Source of the DNA: an uncultured Actinomycetes bacterium
Lineage (GTDB): Bacteria > Actinomycetota > Acidimicrobiia > IMCC26256 > DASPTH01
NCBI GenBank assembly: GCA_963705625.1
Contig: CAVPKG010000001.1
Location: forward strand, 3,790-67,789
DNA length: 64,000 nucleotides
Direction: 5' to 3'
In this document: positions 4,842 to 53,535 of the stretch, one piece after another
How positions within the stretch are numbered: position 1 is the stretch's first letter
Layout of the letters: each line of letters starts with the position of its first letter
The notes under the pieces: model-generated
Databases searched by the model: none
Told to the model about the DNA's origin: nothing
The model's input: only the letters and a program-made list of their open reading frames with translations
Position numbers and translations under genes: made by a program

Positions 4842-5387
4842 ATGCCCGTGCAGGAGGGTCCGGTCGGCCCGTTCCCCCATGGCAAGGATCCCGACGAGTA
4901 CGACCGCTTGCGCCGCCGCGTGCTCTGGACGATGCCGAGCGGGCTCTACGTGCTGGGCAGCACCGACAAGGGCGAGCGTCGGAACGGCATGACGCTGAAC
5001 TGGGTGACGCAGGTGTCGTTCGCCCCCAAGATGCTCGCGGTGGCGATCGAGCTCGGCGCGTACACGCACGAGCTCGTGTCCGACGGCCGCGTCTTCAGCG
5101 TGAACATCGTCGATCGTGAGGACCGCGCCATCGTGCGCAAGTTCACCAAGCCGGTCGAGGTCGACCTCGCGGCACAGACGCTGAACGGCGTTCCGTTCCA
5201 CGACGGCCTGTCCGGCGCGCCGATCCTCGACCAGGCCGCGGCCTACCTCGACTGCGAGGTGCGCGAGTCGGTGTCAGTGGGTGAGCACACGCTGTTCCTG
5301 GGCGAGATCGTGGACGCCGGCTTCCAGAAGCCCGAGGACACCCCTGTCCTCAGGATGGAGGACACCCGCATGAACTACGGCGGGTGA
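4842..5387 (+). CDS. flavin reductase family protein (FMN-binding split barrel)
   Basis: ORF 4842..5387 reads SGLYVLGSTDKGERRNGMTLNWVTQVSFAPKMLAVAIE...HTLFLGEIVDAG, typical of the flavin reductase-like domain. Its last 10 codons and stop are part of the tandem repeat. Confidence 0.85.
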   Translation: MPVQEGPVGPFPHGKDPDEYDRLRRRVLWTMPSGLYVLGSTDKGERRNGMTLNWVTQVSFAPKMLAVAIELGAYTHELVSDGRVFSVNIVDREDRAIVRKFTKPVEVDLAAQTLNGVPFHDGLSGAPILDQAAAYLDCEVRESVSVGEHTLFLGEIVDAGFQKPEDTPVLRMEDTRMNYGG

Positions 5388-5591
5388 TGTCGGCTGCGGA
5401 TGCGGGTGTCCGACCCGTGGTGTTGGAGGACACCCGCATGAACTACGGCGGGTGATGTCGGCTGCGGATGCGGGTGTCCGACCCGTGGTGTTGGAGGACA
5501 CCCGCATGAACTACGGCGGGTGATGTCGGCTGCGGATGCGGGTGTCCGACCCGTGGTGTTGGAGGACACCCGCATGAACGACGGCGGGTGA
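5357..5591. repeat. 68-bp tandem repeat, 3 full copies plus a diverged 31-nt partial copy
   Basis: The unit is GGAGGACACCCGCATGAACTACGGCGGGTGATGTCGGCTGCGGATGCGGGTGTCCGACCCGTGGTGTT. Copies start at 5357, 5425 and 5493, and a partial copy at 5561 has AACGAC instead of AACTAC. Each unit contains a 12-bp inverted repeat GGACACCCGCAT/ATGCGGGTGTCC. ORFs 5274..5507(-) and 5375..5575(-) are offset by exactly 68. Confidence 0.9.
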
Positions 5592-7307: not shown

Positions 7308-9308
7308 ATGACCCCGACGCTCGCCGAATCGGTCCTCGACCGGCTCGGCAGCGATCTCTGGCTCCTCATTCCCGCGTTCGTGTTCTCGGTGCTCGCGGGC
7401 GTCTTCGTCGGCCGGGTGCTCGGGGTCCGGCGGTCGTTTGCGGCGAGCGTGCTCTCCGGGTTCGTCGGCTTCGCGGTGGGCGTGGCGGTCTCGCTGCTGA
7501 TCGCGAACGAACGCGGCAACGCGTCCGAAGGCTTCGCCCGGAACCTGTTCCTGTTCGCGCTGTTCGGCGCGATGGCGGCGGCGGTATGGATCGAGTTCCT
7601 CTCGCGGCCCGGAATGATGGCCCGCGCGCAAACCGGCCTCGCATCGGTCCCGCACCCGGTGCGGTCCCTCCGTCGCCGCGGTCGCCGGATGGCGCGGTAC
7701 GCCGAGATCACGCGGATCGCAGTACGCAACGGCCTCGGCCCGTCGCTCGGTCTCGGCCGCCACGAAGATGTCTCCCAGAACGGCGCCAAACCGCCCACTG
7801 TGCGTCGACTCCGGCTGTCGCTCGAGCAGTGCGGCGGCATGTTCGTGAAGCTCGGCCAGATCGCTTCGACGCGCTCCGACATGCTCTCCCCCGACGCGGT
7901 CAAGGAGCTGTCGTTGCTCCAGGATCGTGTGCAGCCGGCCGCCCGCGACGATGTCGCGGCCTTGCTCGAGTCCGAGCTCGACGCGCCGCTCGAGGACATG
8001 TTCGCCACCTTCGACTGGCAGCCGCTCGCGGCGGCGTCCATCGGTCAGGTGTACCGAGCCGCCCTACCCGACGGCTCACCGGTGGTGGTGAAGGTGATCA
8101 GGCCCGGCATCGAGGAGTCGGTGGCGGTCGACCTCTCGGTGCTCGAAGAGCTCGGGCACGTCGTGGAGACGCGTACGTCGTGGGGCGCCGACTACCACGT
8201 GATGGATCTCGTCGACGAGTTCAGTTCCCGACTGCGCGAAGAGCTCGACTTCCGAATCGAAGCGCGCAATGCGCGCGCGATCGCGTCCAGCCTGCCGAGC
8301 GGATCGCGGATCTCGATCCCCGAGGTCTACGAGGAGCTGAGCACGTCGCGGGTGCTCGTGATGGAGTGGCTCGACGGCGCGAGCGTGCGCGACGTCGCCT
8401 GGGGGGATGCGCGCGCCGCGGAGCGAACCAAGATCGCCGACCTCCTGCTCCGCACGTTCCTCGAGCAGATGCTCCAGGACGGCGTGTTCCACGCCGACCC
8501 GCACCCGGGAAACGTGATGCTGCTCACCGATGGTCGCCTCGCACTGATCGACTTCGGCGCGGCGGGCCGTCTCGACTCCGTCCAGCAGGCCGCGCTCCGA
8601 GATCTCATGGCCGGTGTGAGCCGACGCGACGCCGACGCGGTGGCGCAGGCGGTGCTGCAGGTCGCGAGCCTGCGACGCGGCGTCGACATCGCCGACTTCG
8701 AGCGCGCGCTGGCGCGGTTCATGGCCCAACATCTCGCGCCCGGTGCGCGTGCCGACGCCGCGATGTTCAATGCGATGCTCCGGCTGTTCTTCGAGTTCGG
8801 CATCACGCTCCCCGCGGAGTGGAGCACGTTCTTCCGCGCGTTGATCGTGCTCGAGGGCACGCTCACGACGATCGCTCCCGGCTATTCGGTGATCGACGCG
8901 GCCGAGGCCATCGCCGCGCAGTGGGTCCGCGGGCAGATCACACCGGGATCCGTGCAACAGGCGGTGCGCGACGAGATCCTGCGCACGGTGCCGATGCTGC
9001 GGCGGCTGCCGCGTCACGTCGACCGCGCGTTCAGCATGCTCGAGCGCGAGGGGATCCGCGTGCGGGTGAGCCATTTCCAGGACGCCGACGACACCAGGTT
9101 CGTGACGACGCTCGTGAACCGCTCGATCCTCGCGTTCCTGTCGGGGACCATCGGCTTGCTGTCCGTCGGGCTGATCGCGATCGAGGGCGGTCCACCGTTC
9201 AGCGGCAATACGTCGCTCTTCCAGGTGTTCGGCTACTTCGGACTGTTCTGCTCGACCGTCCTCGCCATGCGCGTCATCGTCGCCGTCCTCCGCGACCGCC
9301 TGAACTAG
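7308..9308 (+). CDS. ABC1/UbiB (AarF) atypical kinase family protein with N- and C-terminal transmembrane segments
   Basis: ORF 7143..9308; internal ATG at 7308 lies after the upstream stop. Motifs: LEQCGGMFVKLGQIASTRSD, AAASIGQVYRA, VVVKVIRPGI, FHADPHPGNVML, LIDFGAAG. Confidence 0.85.
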   Translation: MTPTLAESVLDRLGSDLWLLIPAFVFSVLAGVFVGRVLGVRRSFAASVLSGFVGFAVGVAVSLLIANERGNASEGFARNLFLFALFGAMAAAVWIEFLSRPGMMARAQTGLASVPHPVRSLRRRGRRMARYAEITRIAVRNGLGPSLGLGRHEDVSQNGAKPPTVRRLRLSLEQCGGMFVKLGQIASTRSDMLSPDAVKELSLLQDRVQPAARDDVAALLESELDAPLEDMFATFDWQPLAAASIGQVYRAALPDGSPVVVKVIRPGIEESVAVDLSVLEELGHVVETRTSWGADYHVMDLVDEFSSRLREELDFRIEARNARAIASSLPSGSRISIPEVYEELSTSRVLVMEWLDGASVRDVAWGDARAAERTKIADLLLRTFLEQMLQDGVFHADPHPGNVMLLTDGRLALIDFGAAGRLDSVQQAALRDLMAGVSRRDADAVAQAVLQVASLRRGVDIADFERALARFMAQHLAPGARADAAMFNAMLRLFFEFGITLPAEWSTFFRALIVLEGTLTTIAPGYSVIDAAEAIAAQWVRGQITPGSVQQAVRDEILRTVPMLRRLPRHVDRAFSMLEREGIRVRVSHFQDADDTRFVTTLVNRSILAFLSGTIGLLSVGLIAIEGGPPFSGNTSLFQVFGYFGLFCSTVLAMRVIVAVLRDRLN

Positions 9309-9320
9309 TGCCGGTGCGCG

Positions 9321-10268
9321 CTATTTGGCGGTGCGATCGCGGAAGTCGCGGAGGTTGTAGCCGGTGAGGACACTGGGCTCGAGCGCGCGGGCGCCGGCAG
9401 AGCGACGCAGCCCGAACATCGGCGCGAGCTCGCCGAAGTAGCCCCCGGCGTCGATCTCGGTCACGCGTTCGTCGGCGCCGTCGGCTTGGACGCGGAAGAT
9501 CTCGATCCGGCCCGACTCGACGTAGTACACGAGGTCGCCGGGATCGCCCTGCTCGAAGAGCACCTCGCCCGGCGCGAGTTCGACGGTCTCGGGCGGCCTC
9601 GCCTCACCTGCGGCCCGGGGGGTGAGCTCGACGACGCGATCCGCGAGTGGCAGGAGCCGCTCGTCGTGCGTCGCCACGATGACGACCCGTCCGGGCTGCG
9701 CGAGGTCGCGCAGGAGCCGGAGCACGCCGTCGACCTGGATGTAGTCCAGGTGCGCGGTGGGCTCGTCGGCGAGCACCAGCGGCGGATCGTGCGCGAGCGC
9801 CCGTGCGATTGCGACGCGCTGTTGTTGCCCACCCGACATGTCGGCCGGGCGGTGCGTCATGCGGTCCTCGAGCCCCACCTGCCGGAGCAGCTCCTCCGCC
9901 CGCGCCTTCGCTTCGCGCTTCGGGACCTTTCCCGCCTGCGCCGCGATCTGCACGTTCTCGCGCGCGGTGAGGCTCGGGATCAGGTTGAAGGCCTGGAAGA
10001 CGATGCCCACGGTCGTGCGGCGGTAGTCGACCAGTGCCTGGCCGGACAGACCGGTGACGTCGATGTCGCCGAACGTGATACTGCCGCTCGTGGGCGTCAG
10101 CAGTCGTGCGAGCATCGAGAGCAGGGTGGTCTTGCCGCAGCCGCTCGCGCCCAGCAGCAGTACGAGCTCACCCGTGCTCACGTCGAGATCGAGCGAGTCG
10201 ATCGGCCGCACCTTGTAGCCGCCGCTCGCGAACTCCATCGTGAGGTCCTGGACACGGAGCTCGGGCAT
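9321..10268 (-). CDS. ABC transporter ATP-binding protein (MacB/LolD-type) fused to a C-terminal cyclic-nucleotide-binding domain
   Basis: Starts at MPELRVQDL (ATG 10268). It has Walker A GASGCGKTT, signature MSGGQQQRVAIARAL and Walker B LVLADEPTAHLD. The C-terminal ~110 aa read GEVLFEQGDPGDLVYYVESGRIEIF...GGYFGELAPMFG, a cNMP-binding fold. Confidence 0.85.
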   Translation of the reverse strand: MPELRVQDLTMEFASGGYKVRPIDSLDLDVSTGELVLLLGASGCGKTTLLSMLARLLTPTSGSITFGDIDVTGLSGQALVDYRRTTVGIVFQAFNLIPSLTARENVQIAAQAGKVPKREAKARAEELLRQVGLEDRMTHRPADMSGGQQQRVAIARALAHDPPLVLADEPTAHLDYIQVDGVLRLLRDLAQPGRVVIVATHDERLLPLADRVVELTPRAAGEARPPETVELAPGEVLFEQGDPGDLVYYVESGRIEIFRVQADGADERVTEIDAGGYFGELAPMFGLRRSAGARALEPSVLTGYNLRDFRDRTAK

Positions 10269-18777: not shown

Positions 18778-19713
18778 GTGTCGCGCGACCACACGTTCCG
18801 CGTCCCTGCGGCGCTCCACGACAGCTTTGCCGGTACCACCGAGGGTGATCCGTGGCTCGCTGCCCTCCCGGGCCTCGTCGAGGAGTTGGAACGGCATTGG
18901 GATGTCCGTATCGGCGAGCCGTTCGAAGGCGGTATGGCCTCGTGGAGCGCGCCGGCGTCTCGCGCCGATGGCACGGACGTTGTGGTCAAGCTCGCGTTTC
19001 CGCATCGAGAAGCGCGTGAGGAGGGGACGGCGCTGCAGTTGTGGGGCGGCGAAGGCGCGGTGCTCCTCCTCGACGAGGATCGTGAGCGCCGTGCGCTGCT
19101 GATCGAACGTTGTCAACCGGGCACGACGTTGCGCGACACGGGCCTTCCCGTCGAGGACGCGCTGAGCATCGGCGCCGAGCTGCTCAGGCGATTGTGGCGC
19201 GAGCCCGGGAACCCGTCGGCGTACGAGCGCGTCGCCGACGTGACCGCCGAATGGGCCGTCGATGTCCGCCGGCGTGTCGAGCGACAGTCACCACCGTTCG
19301 ACGTGGGACTCGTGGAGCTCGGCGCGAGCCTGCTCGAATCGCTCCCCGCGAGCGCGGCGCGCGACACCGTCGTCGTGCACGGTGACTTCAACCCCGGCAA
19401 CGTCCTCGCGGCGACGCGTGAGCCATGGCTCGCGATCGATCCTCATCCGATGGTGGGAGACCCTGCGTACGACCCGTCGCAGTTCCTCCTCCAGGTCGAC
19501 GATCCGTTCGAGCACGCGTATCCGCCCGCGGTGCTCGTTCATCGCTTCGAGTTCTTCGGGGACCTCGTTGGTGAAGATCCGCGACGAATGTTTGCGTGGG
19601 CCGTCGCCCGCGAGGTCGAGTACGCGATGTGGGAGTGGTCACGCGGCCAAGCTGCGAGGGCGCAGGCGGCGATGGATCAGGTCGCGGTGCTCGCGCAACT
19701 CGCAGGGCTCTGA
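18778..19713 (+). CDS. aminoglycoside phosphotransferase family protein (APH(6)/streptomycin-hydroxyurea kinase-like)
   Basis: ORF 18778..19713 reads VVVKLAFPHREAREEGTALQLWGGEGAVLLLD...VVVHGDFNPGNVLAA...WLAIDPHPMVGDPAYD, a Brenner-type kinase motif. Confidence 0.75.
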   Translation: MSRDHTFRVPAALHDSFAGTTEGDPWLAALPGLVEELERHWDVRIGEPFEGGMASWSAPASRADGTDVVVKLAFPHREAREEGTALQLWGGEGAVLLLDEDRERRALLIERCQPGTTLRDTGLPVEDALSIGAELLRRLWREPGNPSAYERVADVTAEWAVDVRRRVERQSPPFDVGLVELGASLLESLPASAARDTVVVHGDFNPGNVLAATREPWLAIDPHPMVGDPAYDPSQFLLQVDDPFEHAYPPAVLVHRFEFFGDLVGEDPRRMFAWAVAREVEYAMWEWSRGQAARAQAAMDQVAVLAQLAGL

Positions 19714-19720
19714 CGATCGG

Positions 19721-20370
19721 CTACAGCAGCAGAGGAGTGCGCAGCCCGTAGGTGTCGGTGTCGTCGAGCGTGAGCCGGTGCTCGGCGATCTGGTCGACCG
19801 ACACCATGGCGATCCGGTGCTCGGTCGCGAAGCCGCTCGAGGTACGGACAGCCGCGCGGGCGAGCCGTCCTCGTGCAGCACCTCGCAGATCGCCGCGACC
19901 GGCGGGAGCCCGGCGAGCCGGGCGAGGTCGACGGCGGCCTCGGTGTGGCCGCGGCGCTCGAGCACGCCGCCCGGCGCGGGCGCGCAGCGGGAACACGTGG
20001 CCGGGTCGCTGGAAGTCGCGACGGGCGCGCGTCCGGGTCGAGGACCTTGCGGATGGTCGTGGCGCGATCGGCCGCGCCGATGCCGCTCCCCGCGGTGACG
20101 TGGTCGATCGACACCGTGAACGCGGTGTCGCACCCCGCACGGTCCGACGGCACCATCGGCCACATGTCGAGCGCGTCGAGCACGCGCGTCGCACGGCATG
20201 CACACGAGCCCGCGACCCCACCGCAGCATGAAGTTGACGGCTTCGGGGGTGACCCAGCTCGCTGCCATCGTGAGGTCGCCCTCGTTCTCGCGGTCTTCGT
20301 CGTCGACGACGAGGACCATCTCGCCGCGGCGGATGCGCTTCAGTGCGTCGTCGATGGTGGCCAGTGGCAT
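19721..20370 (-). pseudogene. ribB: 3,4-dihydroxy-2-butanone 4-phosphate synthase, >=4 frame switches
   Basis: The gene is spread over three reverse frames. Segments: MPLATIDDALKRIRRGEMVLVVDDEDRENEGDLTMAASWVTPEAVNFMLRWGRGLVCMPC / LDALDMWPMV...TAFTVSIDH...GIGAADRATTIRKVLD / RDFQRPGHVFPL / GGVLERRGHTEAAVDLARLAGLPPVAAICEVL / FATEHRIAMVSVDQIAEHR. Confidence 0.7.
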
Positions 20371-21406
20371 TGGGGGCTCCTCGTGGTCGAGTTGTCGGGG
20401 CAGGGTGACGACCATGCGGCAGCCGTGCGGCTCCCGTCGTTCGGGATGGATGTCGCCGCCGTGGAGGTCGACGATCCACTGGGCGATCGCGAGGCCGAGC
20501 CCCGCGCCGCCGTCGCTCGACGCGCGCGCGGTGTCGGCGCGGTAGAAGCGCTCGAAGATCCGCGTCTGCTCCGACTCGGGGATGCCCGGGCCTTCGTCGA
20601 CCACCTCGATGACGACGCCGTCGTGGGTGCGGTGCGCGCACACCTCGACGACACCGCCTCGCGGCGTGTGGCGCACCGCGTTCTCGAGCAGGTTCGCGAC
20701 CACCTGGTGCACGCGCTCGGGATCGCCGTCGGCGGTGAGGTCGGGCGAGTCGACCACGATCGAAACGTCGATCTCGGGCGCGTGCAGCCGCTGCTCGCGC
20801 ACCGCGTGCGCGAGCAGCGGCTCCACCCGGAACTCGGTGCGCTCGAGCGGCACCGCGCCCGACTCGAGGCGCGAGAGGTCGAGGAGCTGCTTGACCAGCC
20901 GGCCGAGCCGCTCGACCTGCGCGAGCATCGTGCGGAAGGTCTCGGGGTCGGGCTCGGCCACGCCGTCGACGAGGTTCTCGAGCAGCAGCCTGCAGCGCGG
21001 TGATCGGCGTGCGCAGCTCGTGCGACACGTTCGCGACCAGGTCGCGCCGCACGCGGTCGGTCTCGGCGAGCTCGGCGGCCATCTGGTTGAACGCCCGCGC
21101 CAGGGCGCCGACCTCGTCGCGCGACGACGAACGTACGCGTCGCTCGTAGTTGCCCTTGGCCATCTCGGACGCAGCGGCGGCCATCTCGCGCAGCGGCGAC
21201 GTCATCCCGCGCGCGAGGAACCACACCATCGTCATCGCGACCGCGGCGGCGATGACGCCGCTCACCGACGGCCACAGCCCGATCTTGAGACCGACCCAGA
21301 ACACGAACACCGTGATCGCGACCGCCGCCGCGATCACGAAGCCGAGCTTGAGCTTGATCGACGGGACGTCGTCGAGCGGGTGGGCGAGGCGCTCGCGGCG
21401 GTTCAC
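20371..21406 (-). CDS. two-component sensor histidine kinase (2 TM, HAMP, HisKA, HATPase), frameshift near 20990; 3' end undefined
   Basis: GTG 21406 (VNRRERLAHPL) overlaps the regulator stop (GTGA). Motifs: HAMP ...SPLREMAAAASEMAKGNYERRV, SHELRTPITALQ, NLLENAVRHTP, VVDEGPGIP, GGAGLGLAIAQ. The frame runs into ribB with no stop. Confidence 0.8.
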
Positions 21407-22083
21407 GCGGGCGTTTCCCCGCGGCGTAGCCGACACCGTGCACCGTGCGGACCACGTCGTTACCCAGCTTGCGGCGGAGCGCGCGCACGTGCGAGTCGAC
21501 CGTGCGCGCGCCCGCACCGTCGTGGTAACCCCACACCTGCGCCAGCAGCTGTTCGCGAGTGAAGACGCGCGCCGGTCGTTCGGCGAGATGCACGAGCAGG
21601 TCGAACTCGGTGGGGGTGAGGTGCACCGACTCGTCGCCGTTCCGGACCCGGCGGGTGGCGGGCTCGAGGGTGACCTGCCCCGACCTGGAGCGTGGCGGTG
21701 GGCACGGCAGGCCTGCGCTCGACCCGCCGCAGCAGCGCGTGCACCCGGGCGACGAGCTCACGGGCGCTGAACGGCTTGGTGAGGTAGTCGTCGGCGCCGA
21801 CTTCGAGCCCGACCACGAGGTCGGTCTCCGAGTCACGGGCCGTGAGCATGAGGACCGGAACCGGCCGGTCGCGCTGGATCCTCCGGCAGACGTCGAGGCC
21901 GTCGAGCCCGGGAAGCATGAGGTCGAGCACGACGAGGTCGGGCTGGAGGCGTTCGCAGAGCTCGACGCCCGCGTGCCCGTCGGCGGCGATCGCCACCTCG
22001 AAGCCCTCGCTGCGGAGCCGGGTGGCGACGGCGTCGGCGATCGGCGGTTCGTCCTCCACGACGAGGATCGTGCGCGTGAGCAT
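21403..22083 (-). CDS. OmpR/PhoB-family response regulator, frame switches near 21700 and near the 3' end
   Basis: MLTRTILVVEDEPPIADAV...DLVVLDLMLPGLDG...DYLTKPFSARELVARV is in ORF 21460..22233. LTPTEFDLLVHLAERPARVFTREQLLAQVWGY...VDSHVRALRRKL...TVHGVGY is in ORF 20340..21836. An alternative start lies at 22101. Confidence 0.8.
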
Positions 22084-22170
22084 CGGGGCCGGAAGGGACA
22101 TCGCCGGTCCAGGATAAGGACACGCTCTGAAGGTGTCCCGCTGGAGTTGTGGAGATTCGAAGGAGATCAC

Positions 22171-22223
22171 GAGCGAGCGACTGCGGGCCGGGTATCCCGG
22201 CTCGCAGCGAGCGACCCATGTGC
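22171..22223. repeat. REP/MITE-like palindromic element, solo copy 1, flanked by 10-bp direct repeats
   Basis: The element is GAGCGAGCGACT-GCGGGCCGGG-TAT-CCCGGCTCGC-A-GCGAGCGACCC. AGGAGATCAC occurs at 22161..22170 and again at 22224..22233. The right copy contains the thiQ stop codon. Confidence 0.75.
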
Positions 22224-22229
22224 AGGAGA

Positions 22230-23180
22230 TCACCCGAGCTCGACGGCCGCTCCGGGCGCCATCTCGACGCCGACGCCGGCGCCGACCTCGGGAACCAAGC
22301 CGTCGACCGCGACCGCGACCTCGAGGCGCTCACCGTTCCCCACCTCGATCTCGAGGAGATAGTGGTCTCGGCGGAACGTTCGGCCGGTGACGACGGCCGT
22401 CCTGGCCGACGACGGTGCGAGCTGCAGCCCTTCGGGACGCACGGCGACCAGGCCGTTGCCGAAGGCGCGGGTCACGTTCCAGCCGAGGAACCGGGCGACG
22501 AACACGTTCGCCGGGTGATCCCACACGTCGGCCGGCGTGCCGGACTGCTCGACGCGGCCCCCTTCCATCACGACGACCCGATCGGCGAGCGCGAACGCCT
22601 CGTCGTGGTCGTGGGTCACGAAGATGATCGTGAGCCCGAGACGCACGAACAGCGCGCGGAGCTCGGCGACGAGCCGGTCGCGGCAGCGCGCGGTCGAGCG
22701 CACCGAGAGGTTCGTCGAGCATGAGCAGTCGTGGCGCAGGCGCGAGCGCGCGGCGAGCGCGACCCGTTGCTGCTCGCCGCCGGACAGTTCCGCGACTCGA
22801 CGATGGTCGAACCCGACGAGGCCGACGAGCGCGAGCGCCTCGCGGGCGCGCGCTTCGGCCTCGGCGCGGGGACGGCGCTGCATGCGAAGCCCGAAGACCA
22901 CGTTGCCGAGCACGTCACGGTGCGGGAAGAGGGCGTGATCCTGGAACATCAGGCCGAACCCGCGACGGTGCGGCGGTACGTCGGCGAGGTCGACGCCGTT
23001 CCACCGAACGAACCCGGTCGCCTCGGGCGCGAGTCCCGCGACCGCCCGGAGCAGCGTGCTCTTGCCGCTGCCGCTCGGACCCAGCACGCTCACGATCTCG
23101 CGGTCGCCGATCACGAGGTCTACGCCGTCGAGCGCGGTGACCTCCCCGTAGCGCACCGCGAGCTGTTCGATCTCGAGCAT
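22230..23180 (-). CDS. thiQ: thiamine/Fe3+-type ABC importer ATP-binding protein with C-terminal TOBE-like domain; compensated pair of frame switches
   Basis: MLEIEQLAVRYGEV...GPSGSGKSTLLR...LSGGEQQRVALA, then LLMLDEPLGALD only in ORF 22330..22722, then IIFVTHDHDEAF back in the main frame. ATG 23180 overlaps the thiP stop (ATGA). Confidence 0.8.
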   Translation of the reverse strand: MLEIEQLAVRYGEVTALDGVDLVIGDREIVSVLGPSGSGKSTLLRAVAGLAPEATGFVRWNGVDLADVPPHRRGFGLMFQDHALFPHRDVLGNVVFGLRMQRRPRAEAEARAREALALVGLVGFDHRRVAELSGGEQQRVALAARSRLRHDCSCSTNLSVRSTARCRDRLVAELRALFVRLGLTIIFVTHDHDEAFALADRVVVMEGGRVEQSGTPADVWDHPANVFVARFLGWNVTRAFGNGLVAVRPEGLQLAPSSARTAVVTGRTFRRDHYLLEIEVGNGERLEVAVAVDGLVPEVGAGVGVEMAPGAAVELG

Positions 23181-24837
23181 CAGAACTCGCCGACCGATCC
23201 CACGCGGAACCGCTCGATGCCGAGGATCGCGAGGGCGGTGATGGCCATGAGGATCACGCTCGCCGCCATCGCCGCGCCGAAGTTGAGCGGCCCCGGCTGC
23301 CCGAGCAGCCGGTAGACGAGGACCGGCAAGGTCGGCGAGGTCGGTCGCACGATGAACAACGTGGCTCCGAACTCGCCGAGCGAGATCGCGAAGGCGAAGC
23401 CGGCGGCCACGAGCGCGGCGCGGGCGACGATCGGCAGGTCGACCTCCCGCCAGACCCGGGACGGCGGAGCGCCGAGGGTCGCGGCGACCTCCCGGAGTCG
23501 CGGGTCGATGGCCCGCAGCACGGGCGTCATCACCCGAATGACGAACGGGGTGGCGATCAGCGCTTGCGCGATCGGGACGAGGAGCCACGACGTGCGGAGG
23601 TCGATCGGGGGCTCGTCGAGCGCGATGAGGAACCCGAAGCCCACGGTCACCGCCGACACGCCGAGCGGCAGCGACACGAGCGCATCGAGCGCACGCCCGC
23701 GCCGCCGGGCGAGCACGATCGCGCCGCAACCGCCGACGACGACCGCGATGACCGTGGCGATCGCGGCATACCGCAACGACGTGGCCGTCGCGCTGGCCGG
23801 TGACACGAACAAGGTGCTGCCGCGGTGGAGCTCGTCGAGCGCGCGGTAGGAGTCGAACCCGTAGCCGGACGGCGTGTGCAGCGAACGCTCGACGAGCACC
23901 GCGATCGGACCGCCGAGCAGCAACGCCATCACCGCGAGGTTCACTCCCACCACGGCCCGCTCGCCGCGTGGTGCGCGGACGGTGCGCGGTCTCCGCGGCG
24001 GCCCGCAGTCGCAATGCCACGCGCTCGCGTCCCTGGATGCGCGCGGTGACCGCGAGGAGGACGCCGACGGCCACGAGCTGCACGAACGTGAGCGCGGCGG
24101 CGAGCGGCAGGTTCAGGAGTTGCGCAGTCTGCCGGTAGATCTCGGTTTCGAGCGTCGCGTACCGCGGGCCACCGAGGATCAGGATGACGCCGAACGACGT
24201 GAAGGTGAAGAGGAACACGATCGCGCTCGCGGTCGCGATTGCCGGGCGCAGCGCGGGGAGGGTGACGGCCCGGAACGCCCGCCACGTGCTCGCCCCGAGC
24301 ATCCGCGCCGCTTCTTCCTGATGGGGGTCGAGGTGCGACCAGAGGCCACCCACGGTGCGCACGACCACCGCGTAGTTGAAGAAGACGTGCGCGATGAGGA
24401 TCGCCCACACCGTCTGGTCGAGGCCGAGGCTCCCGAGCGGGCCGCCCGGGCCGAGCAACGCCGCGAACGCGGTTCCGACCACCACGGTGGGCAGCACGAA
24501 CGGCACGGTCACCAGCGCGCGCACGACCGCGTCGTCCGGGGAACTCGTAGCGCGTGAGCATGTACGCGCCGGGCAGCGCGATCGCCACGGTGAGCACCGT
24601 CGACACGGTGGCCTGCCACACCGTGAACCAGATCACGTGACGGAGTGCCGGGTCGGTCACGACCTCGCGGAGCGGATCGAGGTCGAGGGTGCCGTCCGGC
24701 GCGAGGCCGCGTCCGACGATCTTCGCGACCGGGTACACGAAGAACACGGCGAAGAAGGCGAGCGGGACGAGCGTGAGCAGAGCGCTCGCGCCGCGCCGGT
24801 GCGCGACGACCGCTACCGGAGCACTGTGCTGGTCCAC
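23180..24837 (-). CDS. thiP: thiamine ABC transporter permease (duplicated 6-TM fold), frame switches near 24525 and 23960
   Basis: Three reverse frames are needed. Segments: ALLTLVPLAFFAVFFVYPV...VWQATVSTVLTV / VPFVLPTVVVGTAFAALLGP...EEAARMLGASTWRAFRAVTLP / LPLGVSAVTVGFGFLIAL...REVAATLGAPPSRVWREVDLP. Confidence 0.75.
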
Positions 24838-25853: not shown

Positions 25854-26503
25854 GAGAGTGCCTTCCGTGCGTCGGGGAGTACGACGAGCAGCACGCCGTC
25901 GTCGAGCGATACCTGCGCGACCGGCTCGAGCAGCTCGTTGCTCAACCCGCGCGTCGATCCCGGCAACAGGGTCTCGCCGTGGAGCGGGAACCGGAGGCCC
26001 GTGGTGTGCACACCACGCGCCGGTCCACCGAGTGCGAACAGCGAGCACAGGTCGCCCGGCTGCCCCCTGAGCTCGCGAGCGGCGCGGACGACGAACACGT
26101 CGGCGTCGCCCACCCGCGCCTCGACGTCGAGCCCGACGAACTCGTGCGACGCGAGGAGGAGAAGGTTGGCGAGCGAGTGGTCGACGCGTCCGCCCGCGCC
26201 GCCGATCACCACCACACGCGTGCACCCGCGGTCGCGTGCCACCTGCAACGAGAGCTCGAGGTCGGTGAAGTCCTTCGCGCGGGGGTGCACGTCGACCGTC
26301 GTACCGGTGGCGGTCGCGGCGTCGAGCGCCGCAGGATCGACCGAGTCGAGATCGCCGACGACGAGCCCGACGTCGAAGCCGAGCGCGACGGCGTGGTGGA
26401 GCCCGGAGTCGGCCGCAACCACGAGGTCGGCTTCGGGCAGATCCTCGATGGCGCTCGTGGGCGGTGGATCGCCTCCTGCGAACACGAGCGCGACGCTTCC
26501 CAT
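25850..26503 (-). CDS. thiN: thiamine pyrophosphokinase
   Basis: MGSVALVFAGGDPP...DLVVAADSGLHHA...VGDLDS...KDFTDLELSL...VVIGGAGGRVDHSLANL. The ATG at 26503 is preferred over 26521 because 26521 lies inside the riboswitch aptamer. GGAGGGA sits 5 nt upstream of 26503. Confidence 0.85.
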   Translation of the reverse strand: MGSVALVFAGGDPPPTSAIEDLPEADLVVAADSGLHHAVALGFDVGLVVGDLDSVDPAALDAATATGTTVDVHPRAKDFTDLELSLQVARDRGCTRVVVIGGAGGRVDHSLANLLLLASHEFVGLDVEARVGDADVFVVRAARELRGQPGDLCSLFALGGPARGVHTTGLRFPLHGETLLPGSTRGLSNELLEPVAQVSLDDGVLLVVLPDARKALS

Positions 26504-26504
26504 C

Positions 26505-26600
26505 AGTCCCTCCGCCGGCATTACCCGGTTCAGGTTCGAGGGGTCGGCGACGCATGACGGTCGCCCTCTCAGCCCGGCTGTCCCGAGCTCCCCGGGGATT
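26505..26600 (-). ncRNA. TPP (THI-box) riboswitch
   Basis: The reverse strand reads CGGGGAGCUCGGGACAGCCGGGCUGAGAGGGCGACCGUCAUGCGUCGCCGACCCCUCGAACCUGAACCGGGUAAUGCCGGCGGAGGGA. The conserved cores CUGAGA, ACCC, GAACCUGA.CGGGUAAUGCCGGCG.AGGGA are all present and in order. It lies directly 5' of thiN. Confidence 0.8.
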
Positions 26601-26674
26601 CGGTTGTCACGTCATCGTACGCGTTGACGAGCCTGTGCCAGTGTGCGTTCTGCATCGTGGGGAATGGAGGACGG

Positions 26675-28211: not shown

Positions 28212-29443
28212 ATGCCGCTGCTCCAGAGTGCGACCGTGACCTCGCTCATGGCCGCCGCGGGTCATGAGCAACTCGTGTTCGTCGCCGACCGCGCGGTCGG
28301 GTTGCGCGGGGTCATCGCGATCCATTCGACCGCGCTGGGTCCCGCCCTCGGCGGGGTCCGGTTCTGGCGGTACGCGAGCGAGCACGACGCGGTGATCGAC
28401 GCGCTCCGGCTCTCGGAGGCGATGACGCTCAAGGCCGCGATCGCGGGCCTGCACCAGGGTGGGGGCAAGGCGGTCGTCATGTGGGACGACCCGGACCACG
28501 CGCGTCCCCCGCACTGCTCCATGCGCTCGGGCGTGCCATCGACGAGCTCGGTGGCCGCTATCTCGCGGCCGAGGACGTGGGCGCGACCACTGCCGACATG
28601 AACGGGCTCGCCGACGTCACGCCCTGGGTGACCGGTGTCGACGAGGCAAAGGGTGGGTCGGGTGATCCTTCGCCCGTCACCGCCCTCGGTGTGCTGCACG
28701 CGATGCGCGCAGTGCGCACGGCGCTCGACGGAGACGCCTCGCTCCGCGGCTGTCGCGTCGTCGTCCAGGGATCCGGTCATGTGGGCTCGCAGCTCGCGCG
28801 GCGGCTCGTCACCGCGGGCGCCGAGGTGGTGGTGTCCGACCTCTTCGAGTCGCGCGCCGAAGGACTCGCCCGCGAGCTGGGCGCCACGATGGTCGATGCC
28901 GACGACGCACTTGTCACACCCTGCGACATCCTCGCTCCGTGCGCGCTCGGCGACGTGTTCGATGACGAGACCATCCCCCGCCTCCGGTGCCGTGCGATCG
29001 TCGGCGCCGCGAACAACCAACTCGGTGTGATCGGCGCCGACCGCATGCTCGCCGCGCGCGGGATTCTCTACGCCCCGGACTTCGTCGCCAACGCCGGCGG
29101 AATCATCAACATCGCCGAAGAGTTCGTGGGCTATGACCGCGAGCGCGCACTGGCGCGGGCGGCGGAGATCGAGGGCACCACCGCGCGGGTGCTCGCGCTC
29201 GCCGACGAGCAAGACATCACGCCATCGCGCGCTGCCGAGAGAATCGCGCGCCGGCGCATCGCAGAAGAAGGAGCGAATCGCCGGTGGCTGCCCGGCGACC
29301 CCGCCGCGTGGACGAACGGCGCGCCGCTCCGTTCCCTGCGGGGCGCCCGCGGCGACGAGGGCGAGCGAAGCGAGCTGAGTCGCTCGCCAGCGAACGAACG
29401 GCCGCGAGCCGGGTATCCCGGCTCGCAGAGAGCGAGCGAATAG
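28212..29443 (+). CDS. Leu/Phe/Val (Glu/Leu/Phe/Val family) amino-acid dehydrogenase, frameshift near 28500; C-terminal ~25 codons come from a REP element
   Basis: VIAIHSTALGPALGGVRFW...AMTLKAAIAGLHQGGGKAVV is in ORF 28212. LLHALGRAIDELGGRYLAAEDVG...VVVQGSGHVGSQLA...GAANNQL...APDFVANAGG is in ORF 28481..29443. Confidence 0.8.
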
Positions 29444-29448
29444 TCAGG
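29388..29448. repeat. REP/MITE-like palindromic element, solo copy 2 (perfect 10-bp stem)
   Basis: CGAACGAACGGCC-GCGAGCCGGG-TAT-CCCGGCTCGC-AGAGA-GCGAGCGAA-TAGTCAGG. The stem is 29404..29413/29417..29426. It lies between the convergent stops TAG 29441 and CTA 29450. Confidence 0.8.
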
Positions 29449-43988: not shown

Positions 43989-44085
43989 CGCGAGCAGGGT
44001 AACGGAGCGCACGCACCGGCGCCGGTTCGACCCACCGGGCGGACCGTTCGTACACTCGGTTGCCATCCACCGCCCGGAGGCGAGT

Positions 44086-44761
44086 GTGCCCACCGTCGTC
44101 CGTCTCCGCTCCGCCGTCTGCCTGCTCGATCGCTTTCCCGCCCTCGCCGGGGTCGATCTCGACCTCGCCGCGGGTGAGATCGTGCTGCTCTCGGGCGCGA
44201 ACGGCGCCGGCAAGACCACGCTGCTGCGCCTCCTCGCGGGTCTCGTGCCGCTGCTACTCGGGTGAAGCGGTGGTCCTCGACTGCGATCTCGCGCGCGATC
44301 GGAGGAGCGCCCGCCGCGAGCTCGCGCTCGTCGGGCACGAGACGTTTTGCTACGACGACCTCACCGTGCGCGAGAACCTGCGGTTCGCGGCACGCGCCGC
44401 GGGACGGGATGCTGCCGCGGCGGACGACGCGCTCGAACGGGTCGGGCTCGCGGGCGCACGCGACGTGCAGCACCGCAAGCTGTCGGCCGGGCAGCGCCGA
44501 CGGCTGTCGCTCGCGGTGGCGTGGTCACGTGCCCCGAAACTGCTGCTGCTCGACGAACCGCATGCCGGGCTCGACGCCGAGGGCCGCGCAGTGCTCGACG
44601 AGATCGTGAAGGCCGCGCCGAGCGAGGGCCGCAGCGTGCTCATCGCGTCGCACGAACTCGACCGCACCCGCGCCCTCGCGAACCGCGAAGTCGTACTGAC
44701 CGCCGGCCAGGCGGCGGGCGGGGTATCCCCGGACGCAACGAGCGAGCGAGTAGTCAGGTGA
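44086..44761 (+). CDS. ccmA: heme exporter ATP-binding protein CcmA, frameshift near 44255
   Basis: GTG 44086 gives [51 protein letters not shown] (ORF 43894..44265). [12 protein letters not shown]...[12 protein letters not shown]...VLIASHE follows in ORF 44060..44761. Confidence 0.8.
44717..44757. repeat. REP/MITE-like element, partial solo copy 3, inside the ccmA 3' end
   Basis: GCGGGCGGGG-TAT-CCCCGGACGC-AAC-GAGCGAGCGAG-TAGTCAGG. It shares the right half (GAGCGAGCGA.TAGTCAGG) with copy 2. The stem has 2 mismatches. Coordinates are +/-2. Confidence 0.55.
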
Positions 44762-45434
44762 ACCTCTGGCAAGAGGTGCGGCTGGTCGCGGGGAAGGACC
44801 TCCGTATCGAGGCCCGCTCACGTGTCACGATTCAGCAGATCGCTGCCGTTCGGCCTGATCGTGCTCCTCCTGTTCGCGTTCGCGCTCGATCCCGACCGTG
44901 GCGTGTTGAAACGAGTCGCGCCCGGCCTGTTCTGGGTGACGGTGCTCCTCGCGTCGCTCCTCGCGGTGTCGCGTGCGTACGCCATCGAAGCCGACAACGG
45001 CGCGCGCGACGGCCTCCGGCTCTCGGGTCTCGACGGGCCCGCGCTGTTCCTCGGAAAGGCGGCGGCCATCGCGGTGCAGCTGGTCGTGCTGGAAGTGGTG
45101 CTCGCGGTCGTGCGTGGTCGTGCTCTACGGGATCGAGCTGAACACCCTCGTGCCGCTCGTGCTCGCCACGCTGGCCGCGACCGTCGGCGTGGCCGCCACC
45201 GGTACCTTGTACGGCGTGCTCGCAGCGGGGCTGCGGGTACGCGAGACCCTCGTGCCGGTCTTGCTGCTGCCGGTGGTGGCGCCGGTGTTGCTCGGGGCCA
45301 CCCGATCCTGGGAGGCCGCCATCGACGGCGTCCCGTCGGACGCGTGGCCGTGGGTGGGCCTGCTCGGGGTCTTCGCCGTGTTGTTCACCGCGATCGGGAT
45401 GCTCGCCTTCGGGCCGCTCCTGGAGGAAGCATGA
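44758..45434 (+). CDS. ccmB: heme exporter permease CcmB, frame switches near 44825 and 45110
   Basis: GTG 44758 overlaps the ccmA stop (GTGA). Segments: [23 protein letters not shown] / LPFGLIVLLLFAFALD...FWVTVLLASLLAVSRAY..E / LYGIELNTLVPLVLATLAATVGVAATGTLYG...LLLPVVAP. Confidence 0.75.
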
Positions 45435-50629: not shown

Positions 50630-50640
50630 AGGAGCAGGAG

Positions 50641-50686
50641 CGAACGTCCGCGAATCGGGGTATCCCCGATTCGCAGTGAGCGACCC
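50641..50686. repeat. REP/MITE-like palindromic element, solo copy 4 (perfect 11-bp stem), flanked by 9-bp direct repeats
   Basis: CGAACGTCC-GCGAATCGGGG-TAT-CCCCGATTCGC-AGT-GAGCGACCC. GAGCAGGAG occurs at 50632..50640 and again at 50690..50698. Confidence 0.8.
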
Positions 50687-50706
50687 GGAGAGCAGGAGTC
50701 CGTCAC

Positions 50707-53078: not shown

Positions 53079-53148
53079 GAACCTGCGGCCTCCACCTCAT
53101 CAAGCTGACCGACGAAGTGAACAATGTAGGGTTCGCGCGCCACAGAAT

Positions 53149-53535
53149 GGGTCGCTCACGGCTCGCCGGGATACCCCGCTCGCTCGCGTTCGCTCCCGTG
53201 TGCTGGGTCGCTCACGGCTCGCCGGGATACCCCGCTCGCTCGCGTTCGCTCCCGTGTGCTGGGTCGCTCACGGCTCGCCGGGATACCCGGCTCGCTAGCG
53301 TTCGCTCCCGTGTGCTGGGTCGCTCACGGCTCGCCGGGATACCCGGCTCGCTGGCGTTCGCTCCCGTGTGCTGGGTCGCTCACGGCTCGCCGGGATACCC
53401 GGCTCGCTCGTCGTGTTCGCTCCCGTGTGCTGGGTCGCTCACGGCTCGCCGGGATACCCCGCTCGCTAGCGTTCGCTCCCGTGTGCTGGGTCGCTCACGG
53501 CTCGCCGGGATACCCGGCTCGCTAGCGTTCGCTCC
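53149..53535. repeat. tandem array of 7 REP/MITE-like units (period 56 bp, one of 59)
   Basis: The unit is GGGTCGCTCACGGCTCGCCGGGATACCCCGCTCGCTCGCGTTCGCTCCC plus linker GTGTGCT. Unit starts are 53149, 53205, 53261, 53317, 53373, 53432 and 53488. The units are in reverse orientation relative to solo copy 4. The array ends at the rrf2 GTG. Confidence 0.9.

What the first reader, a model, noticed from the sequence alone, without database searches (positions are those of the whole stretch)
22161..22233. REP/MITE-like palindromic element family; copy 1 sits in a 10-bp target-site-like duplication containing the thiQ stop codon
A ~50-nt element recurs at 22171, 29388, 44717 and 50641, and seven times at 53149-53535. 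Its architecture is GAGCGA(A/G)CG - 10/11-bp stem - TAT loop - stem - A(G)N - GAGCGACCC. The stems differ between copies but stay complementary (GCGAGCCGGG/CCCGGCTCGC vs GCGAATCGGGG/CCCCGATTCGC). This compensatory variation argues for selection on the hairpin. Copy 1 is bracketed by the exact repeat AGGAGATCAC (22161-22170 and 22224-22233). The right repeat includes the thiQ stop, as expected for insertion with target duplication just after a gene end. No transposase is present, so the elements would be non-autonomous. Whether this family has already been described in this lineage cannot be decided from the window.
Basis: seen in the sequence. Interest (0 to 1): 0.65.

Follow-up and report, generated by a model that had tools for sequence, protein, structure and literature searches.

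The report
Mobile hairpin repeat family of Acidimicrobiia
The finding is real: it is a previously undescribed family of about 50-base hairpin repeats that has spread through uncultured Acidimicrobiia genomes, lands next to ribosome-binding sites and gene junctions while duplicating about 9-10 bases of target, and is then carried inside the messenger RNA.

Summary
All 11 copies exist: four single-copy sites plus a 7-unit array. None is expected by chance, and a covariance model finds no others. The same element, GAGCGA(A/G)CG-stem-GGGTATCCC-stem-AGnGAGCGA, occurs in more than 101 stretches from at least 37 assemblies, nearly all Acidimicrobiia MAGs. Across 98 distinct copies the stem is 94.6% paired, and all 7 variable pairs show two-sided changes. 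G·T wobbles outnumber A·C mismatches 25:5, which points to a constraint on one strand, probably RNA. Relatives have empty sites at three window loci. Copy 1 is 53 nt plus the 10-nt repeat AGGAGATCAC. Copy 4 is 49 nt plus a 9-nt repeat, GAGCAGGAG, which is the PPIase Shine-Dalgarno. The whole array is absent from a relative at 95% aa identity. In 51 of 96 sites a gene start lies within 40 nt downstream in sense orientation, against 9 of 96 in antisense. Many sites are operon junctions (rplN, rpsJ, tuf, atpC). The family is not a strict REP/RAYT element (no GTAG tag, no inverted doublets, target duplications present). It is not a classical MITE (no terminal inverted repeats). The closest analogue is the mycobacterial MIRU. 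No mobilising gene was found.

The parts
22161..22170 (.). Left copy of the 10-nt direct repeat AGGAGATCAC. This is the copy next to the response-regulator leader and is homologous to the conserved sequence in relatives.
   Evidence: Relatives carry a single TGATCTGCAC / TGATTCTCCAC at this place.
22171..22223 (+). Copy 1: 53-nt element (GAGCGAGCG, 12-bp hairpin with TAT loop, GAGCGA, tail CCCATGTGC). It is antisense to both flanking genes.
   Evidence: 73 bits. RNA fold -30.9 kcal/mol, z -3.4. Absent from L185, L186, L187, L102-L104. The occupied junction is seen in an independent run, X1 contig 22114-22264.
22224..22233 (.). Right copy of AGGAGATCAC. It contains the TGA stop (22230-22232, minus strand) of the thiamine-importer ATPase.
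29349..29448 (+). Copy 2: long form. An upstream module (GCGGCGAC..GGCGAGCGA-loop-TCGCTCGCC-AGC) is followed by the core 29389-29440 and the tail ATAGTCAGG. It lies between convergent genes. The GDH-like ORF 28481-29443 reads through it to the TAG in the tail.
   Evidence: two hairpins, -51.7 kcal/mol; 73.6 bits.
44710..44757 (+). Copy 3: degenerate right part of an element. It lies inside the 3' end of ccmA and ends 0-1 nt before the ccmB GTG (GTGA overlap at 44758-44761).
   Evidence: 32 bits, model positions 12-52. L074 has a full long form at the same junction. L190, L191 and L192 have none.
50632..50640 (.). Left copy of the 9-nt direct repeat GAGCAGGAG. Its last 3 nt double as the element's first GAG.
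50641..50689 (+). Copy 4: element with an 11-bp stem GCGAATCGGGG/CCCCGATTCGC, in sense orientation 17 nt upstream of the PPIase ATG (50707).
   Evidence: 59 bits. Empty in L188 (gap of 21 nt against 77 nt here) and in L191-L193.
50690..50698 (.). Right copy of GAGCAGGAG, which is the PPIase Shine-Dalgarno. It is present once in L188 (AGCAGGAG-CATCAG-ATG).
53148..53535 (-). Head-to-tail array of 6.9 units of 56 nt (one unit is 59 nt). It is sense to TauE (52164-53078, minus strand) and antisense to Rrf2, and sits exactly between the Rrf2 upstream region and the Rrf2 start codon (GTG 53536).
   Evidence: L188 and L189 have a 62-nt gap with no element, and L190 and L191 also lack it.

Best explanation
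This is a family of short, non-autonomous, mobile (or recently mobile) intergenic repeats specific to Acidimicrobiia.

Anatomy. The unit is a GC-rich 10-12-bp hairpin with a conserved GGG-TAT-CCC top. It is flanked by the direct repeats GAGCGA(A/G)CG and AGnGAGCGA(G/C)C, plus a short variable tail. A long form adds a second hairpin module upstream. The core plus tail can amplify into head-to-tail arrays.

Shown.
- New copies appear at sites that are empty in close relatives.
- In the best-resolved cases, 9-10 nt of purine-rich target (AGGAG-containing, Shine-Dalgarno-like) are duplicated.
- At operon junctions the ATGA/GTGA stop-start overlap is duplicated. The upstream stop and the downstream ribosome-binding site or start therefore both survive.
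- The family sits overwhelmingly in sense orientation just upstream of start codons.
- The stem stays complementary through many two-sided changes.

Inferred.
- Insertion is catalysed in trans by an enzyme that makes staggered cuts, or by a recombinase or template switch that uses short homology. This enzyme has not been identified.
- The element is co-transcribed, and the hairpin is constrained on the sense RNA (G·U is tolerated, A·C is not). There it most plausibly acts as an mRNA stability or processing barrier, or as a modulator of translation at the junction.
- Arrays grow by unequal recombination or slippage between unit boundaries.
For: - Family reality and spread.
- Gain at orthologous sites: copy 1 against L185/L186/L187/L102-104. 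Copy 4 and the whole array against L188/L189/L190/L191-193. All outgroups are empty, so gain in the window lineage is the parsimonious reading.
- Other occupied/empty pairs: rplN (L071 against L006), atpC (L098 against L037/L101), L010 against L046, L093 against L056, L074 against L190.
- Flanking repeats: 10 nt (copy 1), 9 nt (copy 4), 9 nt (L023). Repeats of 8 nt or more occur in 11 of 65 solitary short copies against about 1.4 expected.
- Orientation and position: 51/96 against 9/96, Fisher p = 4e-11. 36 starts lie within 14 nt.
- Stem: 94.6% of cells paired against 82.9% when shuffled; 92 two-sided cells against 22.5; 0 of 500 shuffles reach the observed value; slid controls give 35-53%.
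- Strand-specific constraint: G·T 25 against A·C 5, p = 3e-4. Loop orientation is kept in 95+ copies against 1 flipped.
- Subfamily copied as such: the imperfect-stem unit of the window array is about 92% identical to the L077 copy in a related MAG.
- No transposase in the window. Essentially absent from viral contigs.
Against: - No mobilising enzyme was identified, and no whole genome could be scanned.
- The TSD-defined ends differ between copies. The tails are 6, 9 and 13 nt, and there are no terminal inverted repeats, which is odd for a DDE transposase.
- Most copies show no clear duplication. 6-7 of the long flanking repeats are remnants of a preceding tandem unit.
- At three sites the native target resembles the element's own 3' part: GTGCAG at copy 1, GAGAGGCAGCGA at rplN, and CCGGATTCCCCGTGA at copy 4. 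The junctions can therefore be aligned in another way and may reflect homology-guided insertion rather than staggered cleavage.
- Loci were selected with an exact pattern (GAGCGA..GGGTATCCC..GAGCGA), so conservation of those parts is partly circular.
- There are no RNA data.
- The window has many frame breaks, so single-base details of array units may be assembly errors.
Confidence: 0.7

Rival explanations
1. The element is primarily a host cis-regulatory RNA module, such as an intercistronic or 5'-UTR hairpin bound by a global RNA-binding protein or RNase. On this view selection for regulation, not selfish mobility, explains its spread and conservation.
For: - Sense-orientation bias and near-fixed spacing to start codons.
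- It sits in front of housekeeping genes: rplN, rpsJ, tuf, atpC, truB, glnA-like.
- G·U is tolerated but A·C is not.
- The loop and GAGCGA flanks are invariant and the loop orientation is conserved.
- Orthologous copies in different species keep the hairpin with different stems: L017, L040, L046, L062, L070.
Against: - It is dispensable at every site tested. Relatives at 95% aa identity lack it upstream of the same genes.
- It also occurs antisense (copy 1), between convergent genes (copy 2), between tRNA genes (L082), inside ORF ends (copies 2 and 3), and as 2-7-unit arrays.
- The downstream genes share no function.
- There is no Rfam family.
Confidence: 0.2
2. It is a true REP/REPIN family mobilised by a RAYT (IS200/IS605-like HUH tyrosine transposase) encoded elsewhere in the genome.
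For: It is a short GC-rich extragenic palindrome, present in many copies per genome and in clusters. The conserved motif 5' of the hairpin could serve as a guide or cleavage motif.
Against: - There is no GTAG/CGTC tag at the stem foot.
- Clusters are head-to-tail, not inverted doublets.
- The insertions carry 9-10-nt duplications, which HUH single-strand transposition does not make.
- No Y1_Tnp domain was found in the window ORFs scanned.
Confidence: 0.06
3. It is a double-stranded DNA binding-site or cruciform motif for a nucleoid or regulatory protein. On this view the stem complementarity is kept by palindrome self-correction rather than by selection.
For: The flanks and loop are invariant while the stem is variable. 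Quasipalindrome correction is an established mutational mechanism (general knowledge).
Against: - The G·T against A·C asymmetry (25:5) and the orientation bias relative to genes are not expected for a symmetric dsDNA site.
- An operator would conserve the arm sequence, not just the pairing.
- Insertion polymorphism with target duplication.
Confidence: 0.04

Closest known systems
MIRU (mycobacterial interspersed repetitive units; Supply et al. 1997, as summarised in Delihas 2011, PMC3184786)
   Same: - The host is an actinobacterium.
- Units are 40-100 bp and often form tandem arrays of variable number.
- They sit in intergenic regions within operons and are co-transcribed.
- Filled and empty sites differ by short direct repeats.
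- They have GC-rich internal inverted repeats.
- The unit ends overlap the stop and start of flanking genes (compared).
   Different: - The sequence family is unrelated (GAGCGA flanks, GGGTATCCC top).
- The hairpin is much stronger and dominates the unit.
- Array periods are 54-59 nt, not multiples of 3, so there is no consistent small ORF.
- Target duplication is 9-10 nt in the best cases rather than 4 nt.
- The host class is Acidimicrobiia.
- Sequence comparison with the MIRU consensus was not run.
REP / BIME / REPIN elements of Proteobacteria, mobilised by RAYTs
   Same: Short GC-rich imperfect palindromes. Hundreds of extragenic copies. They form clusters, are transcribed within mRNAs, and have known roles as mRNA-stabilising hairpins.
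   Different: There is no GTAG tag. Arrays are direct rather than inverted doublets. Target duplications are present. There is a strong sense bias and placement next to start codons rather than in 3' UTRs. No RAYT was found.
MITEs (e.g. Correia/NEMIS of Neisseria, RUP of pneumococcus)
   Same: Non-autonomous and under 150 bp. Flanked by target duplications. Empty sites exist in relatives. They fold into a stem-loop in RNA and can supply or disturb expression signals of the adjacent gene.
   Different: The termini are direct repeats (GAGCGA...GAGCGA), not terminal inverted repeats. The TSD-defined ends are not constant. No cognate IS is known.
BOX elements of Streptococcus pneumoniae; Neisseria REP2 / Borrelia upstream repeats (PMC3184786)
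   Same: Like BOX, it is modular: an optional upstream module plus a core that can be repeated in tandem. Like REP2, it lies immediately upstream of genes and overlaps the RBS and start region.
   Different: There is no sequence relation. No promoter-like motif was detected in the element. The phylum is different.

Membership tests
REP/REPIN (RAYT-mobilised) | Short imperfect extragenic palindrome in many copies | tested here: met
REP/REPIN (RAYT-mobilised) | Conserved GTAG (or CGTC) tetranucleotide at the 5' foot of the hairpin | tested here: not met
   In alignment A1 the columns before the stem read GAGCGA(A/G)CGnCC. There is no GTAG or CGTC.
REP/REPIN (RAYT-mobilised) | Copies organised as inverted doublets (REPINs) | tested here: not met
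   All clusters are head-to-tail: the window array, L004, L044, L048, L050, L064, L079, L091.
REP/REPIN (RAYT-mobilised) | Transposition without target-site duplication | tested here: not met
   9-10-nt duplications at copy 1, copy 4 and L023, with empty sites in relatives.
REP/REPIN (RAYT-mobilised) | Cognate RAYT gene in the genome, flanked by the repeats | not testable with these tools
   None among about 66 window ORFs.
MITE | Terminal inverted repeats at the element ends | tested here: not met
   The ends defined by the duplications are GAGCGAGCGAC... and ...CCCATGTGC (copy 1). These are not inverted repeats of each other. The flanks are direct repeats.
MITE | Target-site duplication flanking the insertion, with empty sites in relatives | tested here: met
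   Met at 3 sites (10, 9 and 9 nt). Only 3-6 nt (ATGA-type) at operon junctions. Not detectable at most copies.
MITE | Small, without a transposase ORF | tested here: met
   About 50-105 nt. No Pfam hit for the ORF that spans the array.
MITE | Parent IS with the same ends | not tested
   No search was possible without whole genomes.
MIRU-like intercistronic VNTR | 40-100-bp units in tandem arrays whose copy number differs between relatives | tested here: met
   Window: 7 units, against 0 in L188/L189. Arrays of 2-3 units in other MAGs. 'Go-back' joints in metagenome contigs.
MIRU-like intercistronic VNTR | Located between genes of operons, in the same orientation as the genes | tested here: met
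   51/96 sense against 9/96 antisense. Examples: the rplN, rpsJ, atpC and ccmB junctions.
MIRU-like intercistronic VNTR | Unit encodes a small ORF whose ends overlap the flanking genes' stop and start | tested here: inconclusive
   ATGA/GTGA overlaps are duplicated at the junctions, and upstream ORFs read into copies 2 and 3. However, the periods (54, 56, 57, 58, 59 nt) are not consistently multiples of 3.
MIRU-like intercistronic VNTR | Sequence homology to the Mycobacterium MIRU consensus | not tested
   No MIRU sequence was at hand. The hosts belong to a different class.
Any described structured RNA (Rfam 15) | Match to a curated covariance model | tested here: not met
   Only the TPP riboswitch passes in the window. 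The best hit on the element has E about 1 (sucA, 15.6 bits against a gathering score of 40).

The most novel reading that the evidence does not exclude
The element is a mobile RNA module that homes to Shine-Dalgarno or stop-start junctions. It targets AGGAG-type sequences in a fixed orientation and regenerates the ribosome-binding site by target duplication. Its sense-strand hairpin, possibly bound by a dedicated protein that recognises the GGGUAUCCC top and the GAGCGA repeats, then sets mRNA stability, processing or translational coupling of the downstream cistron. A selfish repeat would thus have become a genome-wide layer of post-transcriptional control in a whole bacterial class.
Probability: 0.18. 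Interest if true: 0.75.

Novelty: new variant of a known kind. Interest (0 to 1): 0.5.

Why it matters
Acidimicrobiia are abundant in soil, peat, freshwater and marine habitats, but almost none are cultured. No interspersed repeat family was found described for them, either in Rfam or in the literature searched.

This family is frequent: 5 sites in 64 kb here. It is polymorphic between close relatives, and it sits at the most expression-sensitive position of a gene, between the stop codon or RBS and the start codon, including ribosomal-protein, EF-Tu and ATP-synthase operons.

Practical consequences:
- It is a ready-made strain-typing (VNTR) marker.
- It is a likely cause of MAG assembly breaks and of gene-start miscalls. 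ORFs read through it.

Biological consequences:
- It is a natural experiment on how hairpins inserted at cistron junctions affect operon expression.
- It is a lead to an unidentified insertion machinery that duplicates 9-10 nt yet needs no terminal inverted repeats.

Tried and rejected
- Rfam at gathering and at permissive thresholds gave no family.
- Literature searches for Acidimicrobiia plus REP, and for the loop motif, found nothing relevant.
- The look-up of encoding contigs with window proteins: the window itself is not in that collection.
- Read laying on peat and sediment metagenome contigs was noisy. It confirmed the occupied copy-1 junction in one run and showed tandem 'go-back' joints, but no empty site.
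- No RNA runs are indexed for this stretch.
- Sigma-70 promoter and intrinsic-terminator scans found no hit in any element. A promoter or canonical terminator role was dropped.
- The viral contig scan gave a single hit, so the element is not phage-borne.
- A protein-coding reading of the repeat was rejected: the periods are not multiples of 3, the array ORF has no Pfam hit, and the stems covary.
- A CRISPR reading was rejected because there are no spacers.
- The first TSD test, with flanks cut at the GAGCGA boundary, missed copy 4 because the repeat overlaps the first GAG. It was redone.
Full report
**1. The observation**

The window (68.5% G+C) carries the described element at all the stated places.
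- Copy 1 is at 22171-22223 and is bracketed by exact AGGAGATCAC repeats at 22161-22170 and 22224-22233.
- Copy 2 has its core at 29389-29440.
- Copy 3 is degenerate, at 44710-44757.
- Copy 4 is at 50638-50689.
- A head-to-tail array lies at 53148-53535 on the minus strand (period 56, 6.9 units, 96% matches).

Pattern searches give 11 and 8 matches with zero expected in shuffles. A covariance model built later from 98 family members, run with filters off, finds exactly these 11 copies. The next best score is 16 bits.

Single copies fold into very stable hairpins: -30.9 kcal/mol with z -3.4 for copy 1, and -22.7 kcal/mol for copy 4. The array units carry a variant 3' arm (GGCGAGC) that is not complementary to the 5' arm, and they fold less distinctively (z -1.9).

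**2. Gene context in the window**

- Copy 1 lies between the stop of the ATPase of a thiamine ABC importer and an OmpR-type response regulator.
  - The importer has a TPP riboswitch at 26490-26604 and a thiamine SBP above the NCBIfam cutoff.
  - The regulator's real start, by comparison with relatives, is ATG 22101.
  - The element is antisense to both genes.
- Copy 2 is a long form between convergent genes. The GDH-like ORF reads through it.
- Copy 3 lies inside the last codons of ccmA and abuts the ccmB start (GTGA overlap).
- Copy 4 lies between a TPR protein and a cyclophilin, in sense orientation, 17 nt before the ATG.
- The array fills the divergent TauE/Rrf2 spacer.

No transposase, integrase or HUH domain was seen in about 66 ORFs.

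The window has several frame breaks. For example, the response regulator's receiver and DNA-binding domains are in different frames. Single-base details should therefore be read with care. An independent metagenome contig does confirm the occupied copy-1 junction without gaps.

**3. The family outside the window**

Among the 80 listed there are at least 37 assemblies.
- Almost all are labelled Acidimicrobiia, Actinomycetota or 'Actinomycetes' MAGs. A few carry labels that look wrong.
- Several genomes contribute many loci. Tandem arrays of 2-3 units recur.
- Only one hit exists in 2.9 million viral contigs.
- Rfam has no matching family. Two literature searches found nothing.

From 133 copies (116 sites) the core consensus is GAGCGA(A/G)CG-n-CC-GCGGGCC-GGGTATCCC-GGCCCGC-AG-n-GAGCGA(G/C)C(C/G)A, with almost fixed spacings.

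About a third of copies are a long form with a further ~45-nt upstream module. That module contains more GAGCGA repeats and a second hairpin (GGCGAGCG-loop-CGCTCGCC).

**4. The hairpin**

These counts come from 98 distinct copies. The pattern used to collect them did not constrain the seven variable stem pairs.
- 94.6% of cells are standard pairs, against 82.9% after shuffling.
- All seven variable pairs show two-sided changes.
- There are 92 two-sided cells, against 22.5 expected.
- None of 500 shuffles reaches the observed values.
- Sliding the partner by 1-3 columns drops pairing to 35-53%.
- There are 36 different 5' arms.

Compensation in a DNA palindrome could in principle arise by templated self-correction, but two observations argue for a strand-specific constraint.
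- Non-Watson-Crick cells on the element's sense strand are G·T 25 times and A·C only 5 times (p = 3e-4).
- The asymmetric loop keeps its orientation relative to the flanks in 95+ copies against one.

Because the elements are mostly sense to the neighbouring genes, the simplest reading is that the hairpin matters in the transcript. This is an inference. No RNA data could be found.

**5. Placement**

- In 51 of 96 sites, a well-supported ORF (by length and GC3) starts within 40 nt downstream of the right GAGCGA in sense orientation. 36 of these start within 14 nt, with modes at 4 and 10 nt.
- In antisense orientation the figure is 9 of 96 (Fisher p = 4e-11).
- Where an upstream gene lies on the same strand, its stop tends to sit at the left end of the short or the long form. 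The element is then essentially the whole intercistronic spacer.
- The downstream genes are unrelated housekeeping genes: rplN, rpsJ, tuf, atpC, truB, ccmB, a glnA-like gene and a leuA-like gene (read from the N-termini).
- No sigma-70-like promoter or T-tract terminator lies in the elements.

**6. Mobility and the duplication**

*Copy 1.* Homologues of the response regulator led to contigs of relatives. In L185, L186 and L187 the ATPase gene is directly followed by the regulator, as in the window. The junction there reads ...TGATCTGCAC(C/G)GAATCTCCACA..., without any element.
- More distant relatives (L102-L104) have other genes in between but keep the same conserved leader, preceded by a single GTGATCT-like motif.
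- Removing the 53-nt element and one 10-mer from the window gives TGATCTCCTTCGAATCTCC. This has the same length as the relatives' sequence, and 7 of 10 positions in the 10-mer are identical.

*Copy 4.* Homologues of the MpaB-like protein gave L188 (95% aa identity), L189, L190 and L191-L193.
- In L188 the TPR-cyclophilin spacer is 21 nt (CACCCCG-AGCAGGAG-CATCAG-ATG), against 77 nt in the window.
- In the window, GAGCAGGAG occurs on both sides of the element (50632-50640 and 50690-50698).
- The duplicated target is therefore the cyclophilin Shine-Dalgarno.

*The array.* The entire 7-unit array is missing in L188 and L189 (62-nt spacer) and in L190 and L191. It sits exactly between the Rrf2 upstream region and the Rrf2 start codon.

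*Direction of change.* All outgroups are empty at all three sites, so gain in the window lineage is the parsimonious reading.

*Other loci.* Further filled and empty pairs exist among the genome loci:
- rplN: L071 and L034 filled, L006 empty
- atpC: L098 filled, L037 and L101 empty
- L010 against L046
- L093 against L056
- L074 against L190

At these operon junctions, the ATGA/GTGA stop-start overlap (or CCATGA) is present on both sides of the insert.

*Family-wide test.* Flanking repeats of 8 nt or more occur in 11 of 65 solitary short copies, against about 1.4 expected.
- Most of these are remnants of a preceding tandem unit.
- Clean cases are copy 1 (10 nt), copy 4 (9 nt) and L023 (9 nt).
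- Most copies show nothing recognisable.

**7. What does not fit a simple transposon**

- The ends defined by the duplications are not constant: the tails after the right GAGCGA are 6, 9 and 13 nt.
- The ends are not inverted repeats of each other.
- At three sites the native target resembles the element's own 3' part:
  - GTGCAG at copy 1
  - GAGAGGCAGCGA at the S17 end
  - CCGGATTCCCCGTGA at the TPR end
- The junctions can therefore be drawn in more than one way. Insertion guided by short homology (site-specific recombination or template switching from another copy) cannot be excluded.
- On the other side, a subfamily with an imperfect stem (the window array unit) is found almost unchanged in a related MAG (L077). 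This shows that variants are propagated as copies rather than re-evolved.

**8. Comparison with known families**

*Strict REP/REPIN membership* fails on three tested features: no GTAG/CGTC tag, no inverted doublets, and target duplications present. A RAYT gene could not be searched for genome-wide.

*Classical MITE membership* fails on terminal inverted repeats. It is met for small size, lack of a transposase, and duplication with empty sites.

*The closest functional analogue is the mycobacterial MIRU.* As summarised by Delihas 2011 (PMC3184786), MIRUs:
- are 40-100 bp and often tandem
- lie in intergenic regions within operons and are co-transcribed
- differ between filled and empty sites by short direct repeats
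- have GC-rich internal inverted repeats
- have ends that overlap the flanking genes

The present family shares these traits but differs in four ways:
- It is unrelated in sequence.
- It has a dominant hairpin.
- Its periods are not multiples of three.
- It has longer duplications, and it lives in a different class.

BOX (modularity) and Neisseria REP2 (placement at the RBS and start) are looser parallels.

**9. Verdict**

I classify the finding as a new variant of a known kind (small non-autonomous intergenic repeats).

The interesting twists are its homing to, or retention at, Shine-Dalgarno and stop-start junctions in sense orientation, and the evidence for an RNA-level structural constraint.

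The mobilising machinery and any physiological role remain unknown.

Confidence:
- 0.7 that it is a mobile repeat family that inserts with target duplication
- about 0.4 that the hairpin has a selected role in the transcript
- about 0.18 for the stronger 'RBS-homing regulatory module' reading

Noticed in passing
window 5356-5591: A second, unrelated tandem repeat: 3.5 copies of a 68-nt unit at 99% identity. It starts inside the last ~32 nt of the flavin reductase gene (4842-5387) and carries its own hairpin GGACACCCGCAT...ATGCGGGTGTCC. It looks like a very recent tandem duplication of a gene end plus its downstream hairpin.
   Followed up: partly
window 19639-22233 (also 22230-24524 and 44762-46189): Frame breaks. 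The response regulator's receiver domain and its Trans_reg_C domain are in different frames. The histidine kinase is split, and its HATPase domain is fused in frame with DHBP synthase. Permease+ATPase and ccmB+ccmC each form one ORF. The cause is either indel errors of a long-read MAG or pseudogenes.
   Followed up: partly
window 22102-22160 (minus strand); L103, L104, L185: A conserved leader lies upstream of the response regulator: GAATCTCCACAACTCC, then hairpin GGACACC-N8-GGTGTCC, then TTATCC. It is shared by relatives at 70-93% protein identity and may be an autoregulatory site or leader. The element was inserted at its distal edge.
   Followed up: no
window 28481-29443 and 44060-44761: Two upstream ORFs (GDH-like and ccmA) run into element copies 2 and 3. 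About 33 and about 14 C-terminal codons are therefore element-encoded. In the shared frame these read ...SPANERPRAGYPGSQRASE*. This is reminiscent of Rickettsia palindromic elements inside genes.
   Followed up: partly
L082 5682-5728 (minus) versus L035 ~7708-7742: One element copy sits between two tRNA genes. The orthologous spacer in another MAG has a plain hairpin (GGGGCGGGCC-TTCG-GGCCCGCTCC) whose stem resembles the family's consensus stem.
   Followed up: no
window 26490-26604 (minus): A TPP riboswitch (59.6 bits) lies upstream of the thiamine SBP/permease/ATPase operon. The ATPase is PotA/PhnT-like with a long C-terminal (TOBE-type in relatives) extension, so it is not a canonical ThiQ.
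   Followed up: yes
loci, e.g. L007, L008, L051, L065: Contigs carrying this Acidimicrobiia-type element are deposited under Bifidobacteriaceae, Bifidobacterium breve and Verrucomicrobiae MAG names. These are probably mislabelled or mis-binned records.
   Followed up: no
L190 ~9480-9520: The 3' end of the TPR gene (GTGCCGAGTTCTCCCTGA) is followed by a near-duplicate (GTGCCGAATTCCCCCTGA) just before the cyclophilin start. This is a small local duplication at the same junction that is hit by the element in the window.
   Followed up: no
window 53536 versus L188 8353: Rrf2 starts with ATG right after a TAGGGT motif (-10-like) in relatives, which suggests a leaderless or short-leader gene. In the window the start is GTG and is separated from that motif by about 400 nt of antisense repeat array. 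Rrf2 expression is therefore probably altered.
   Followed up: no
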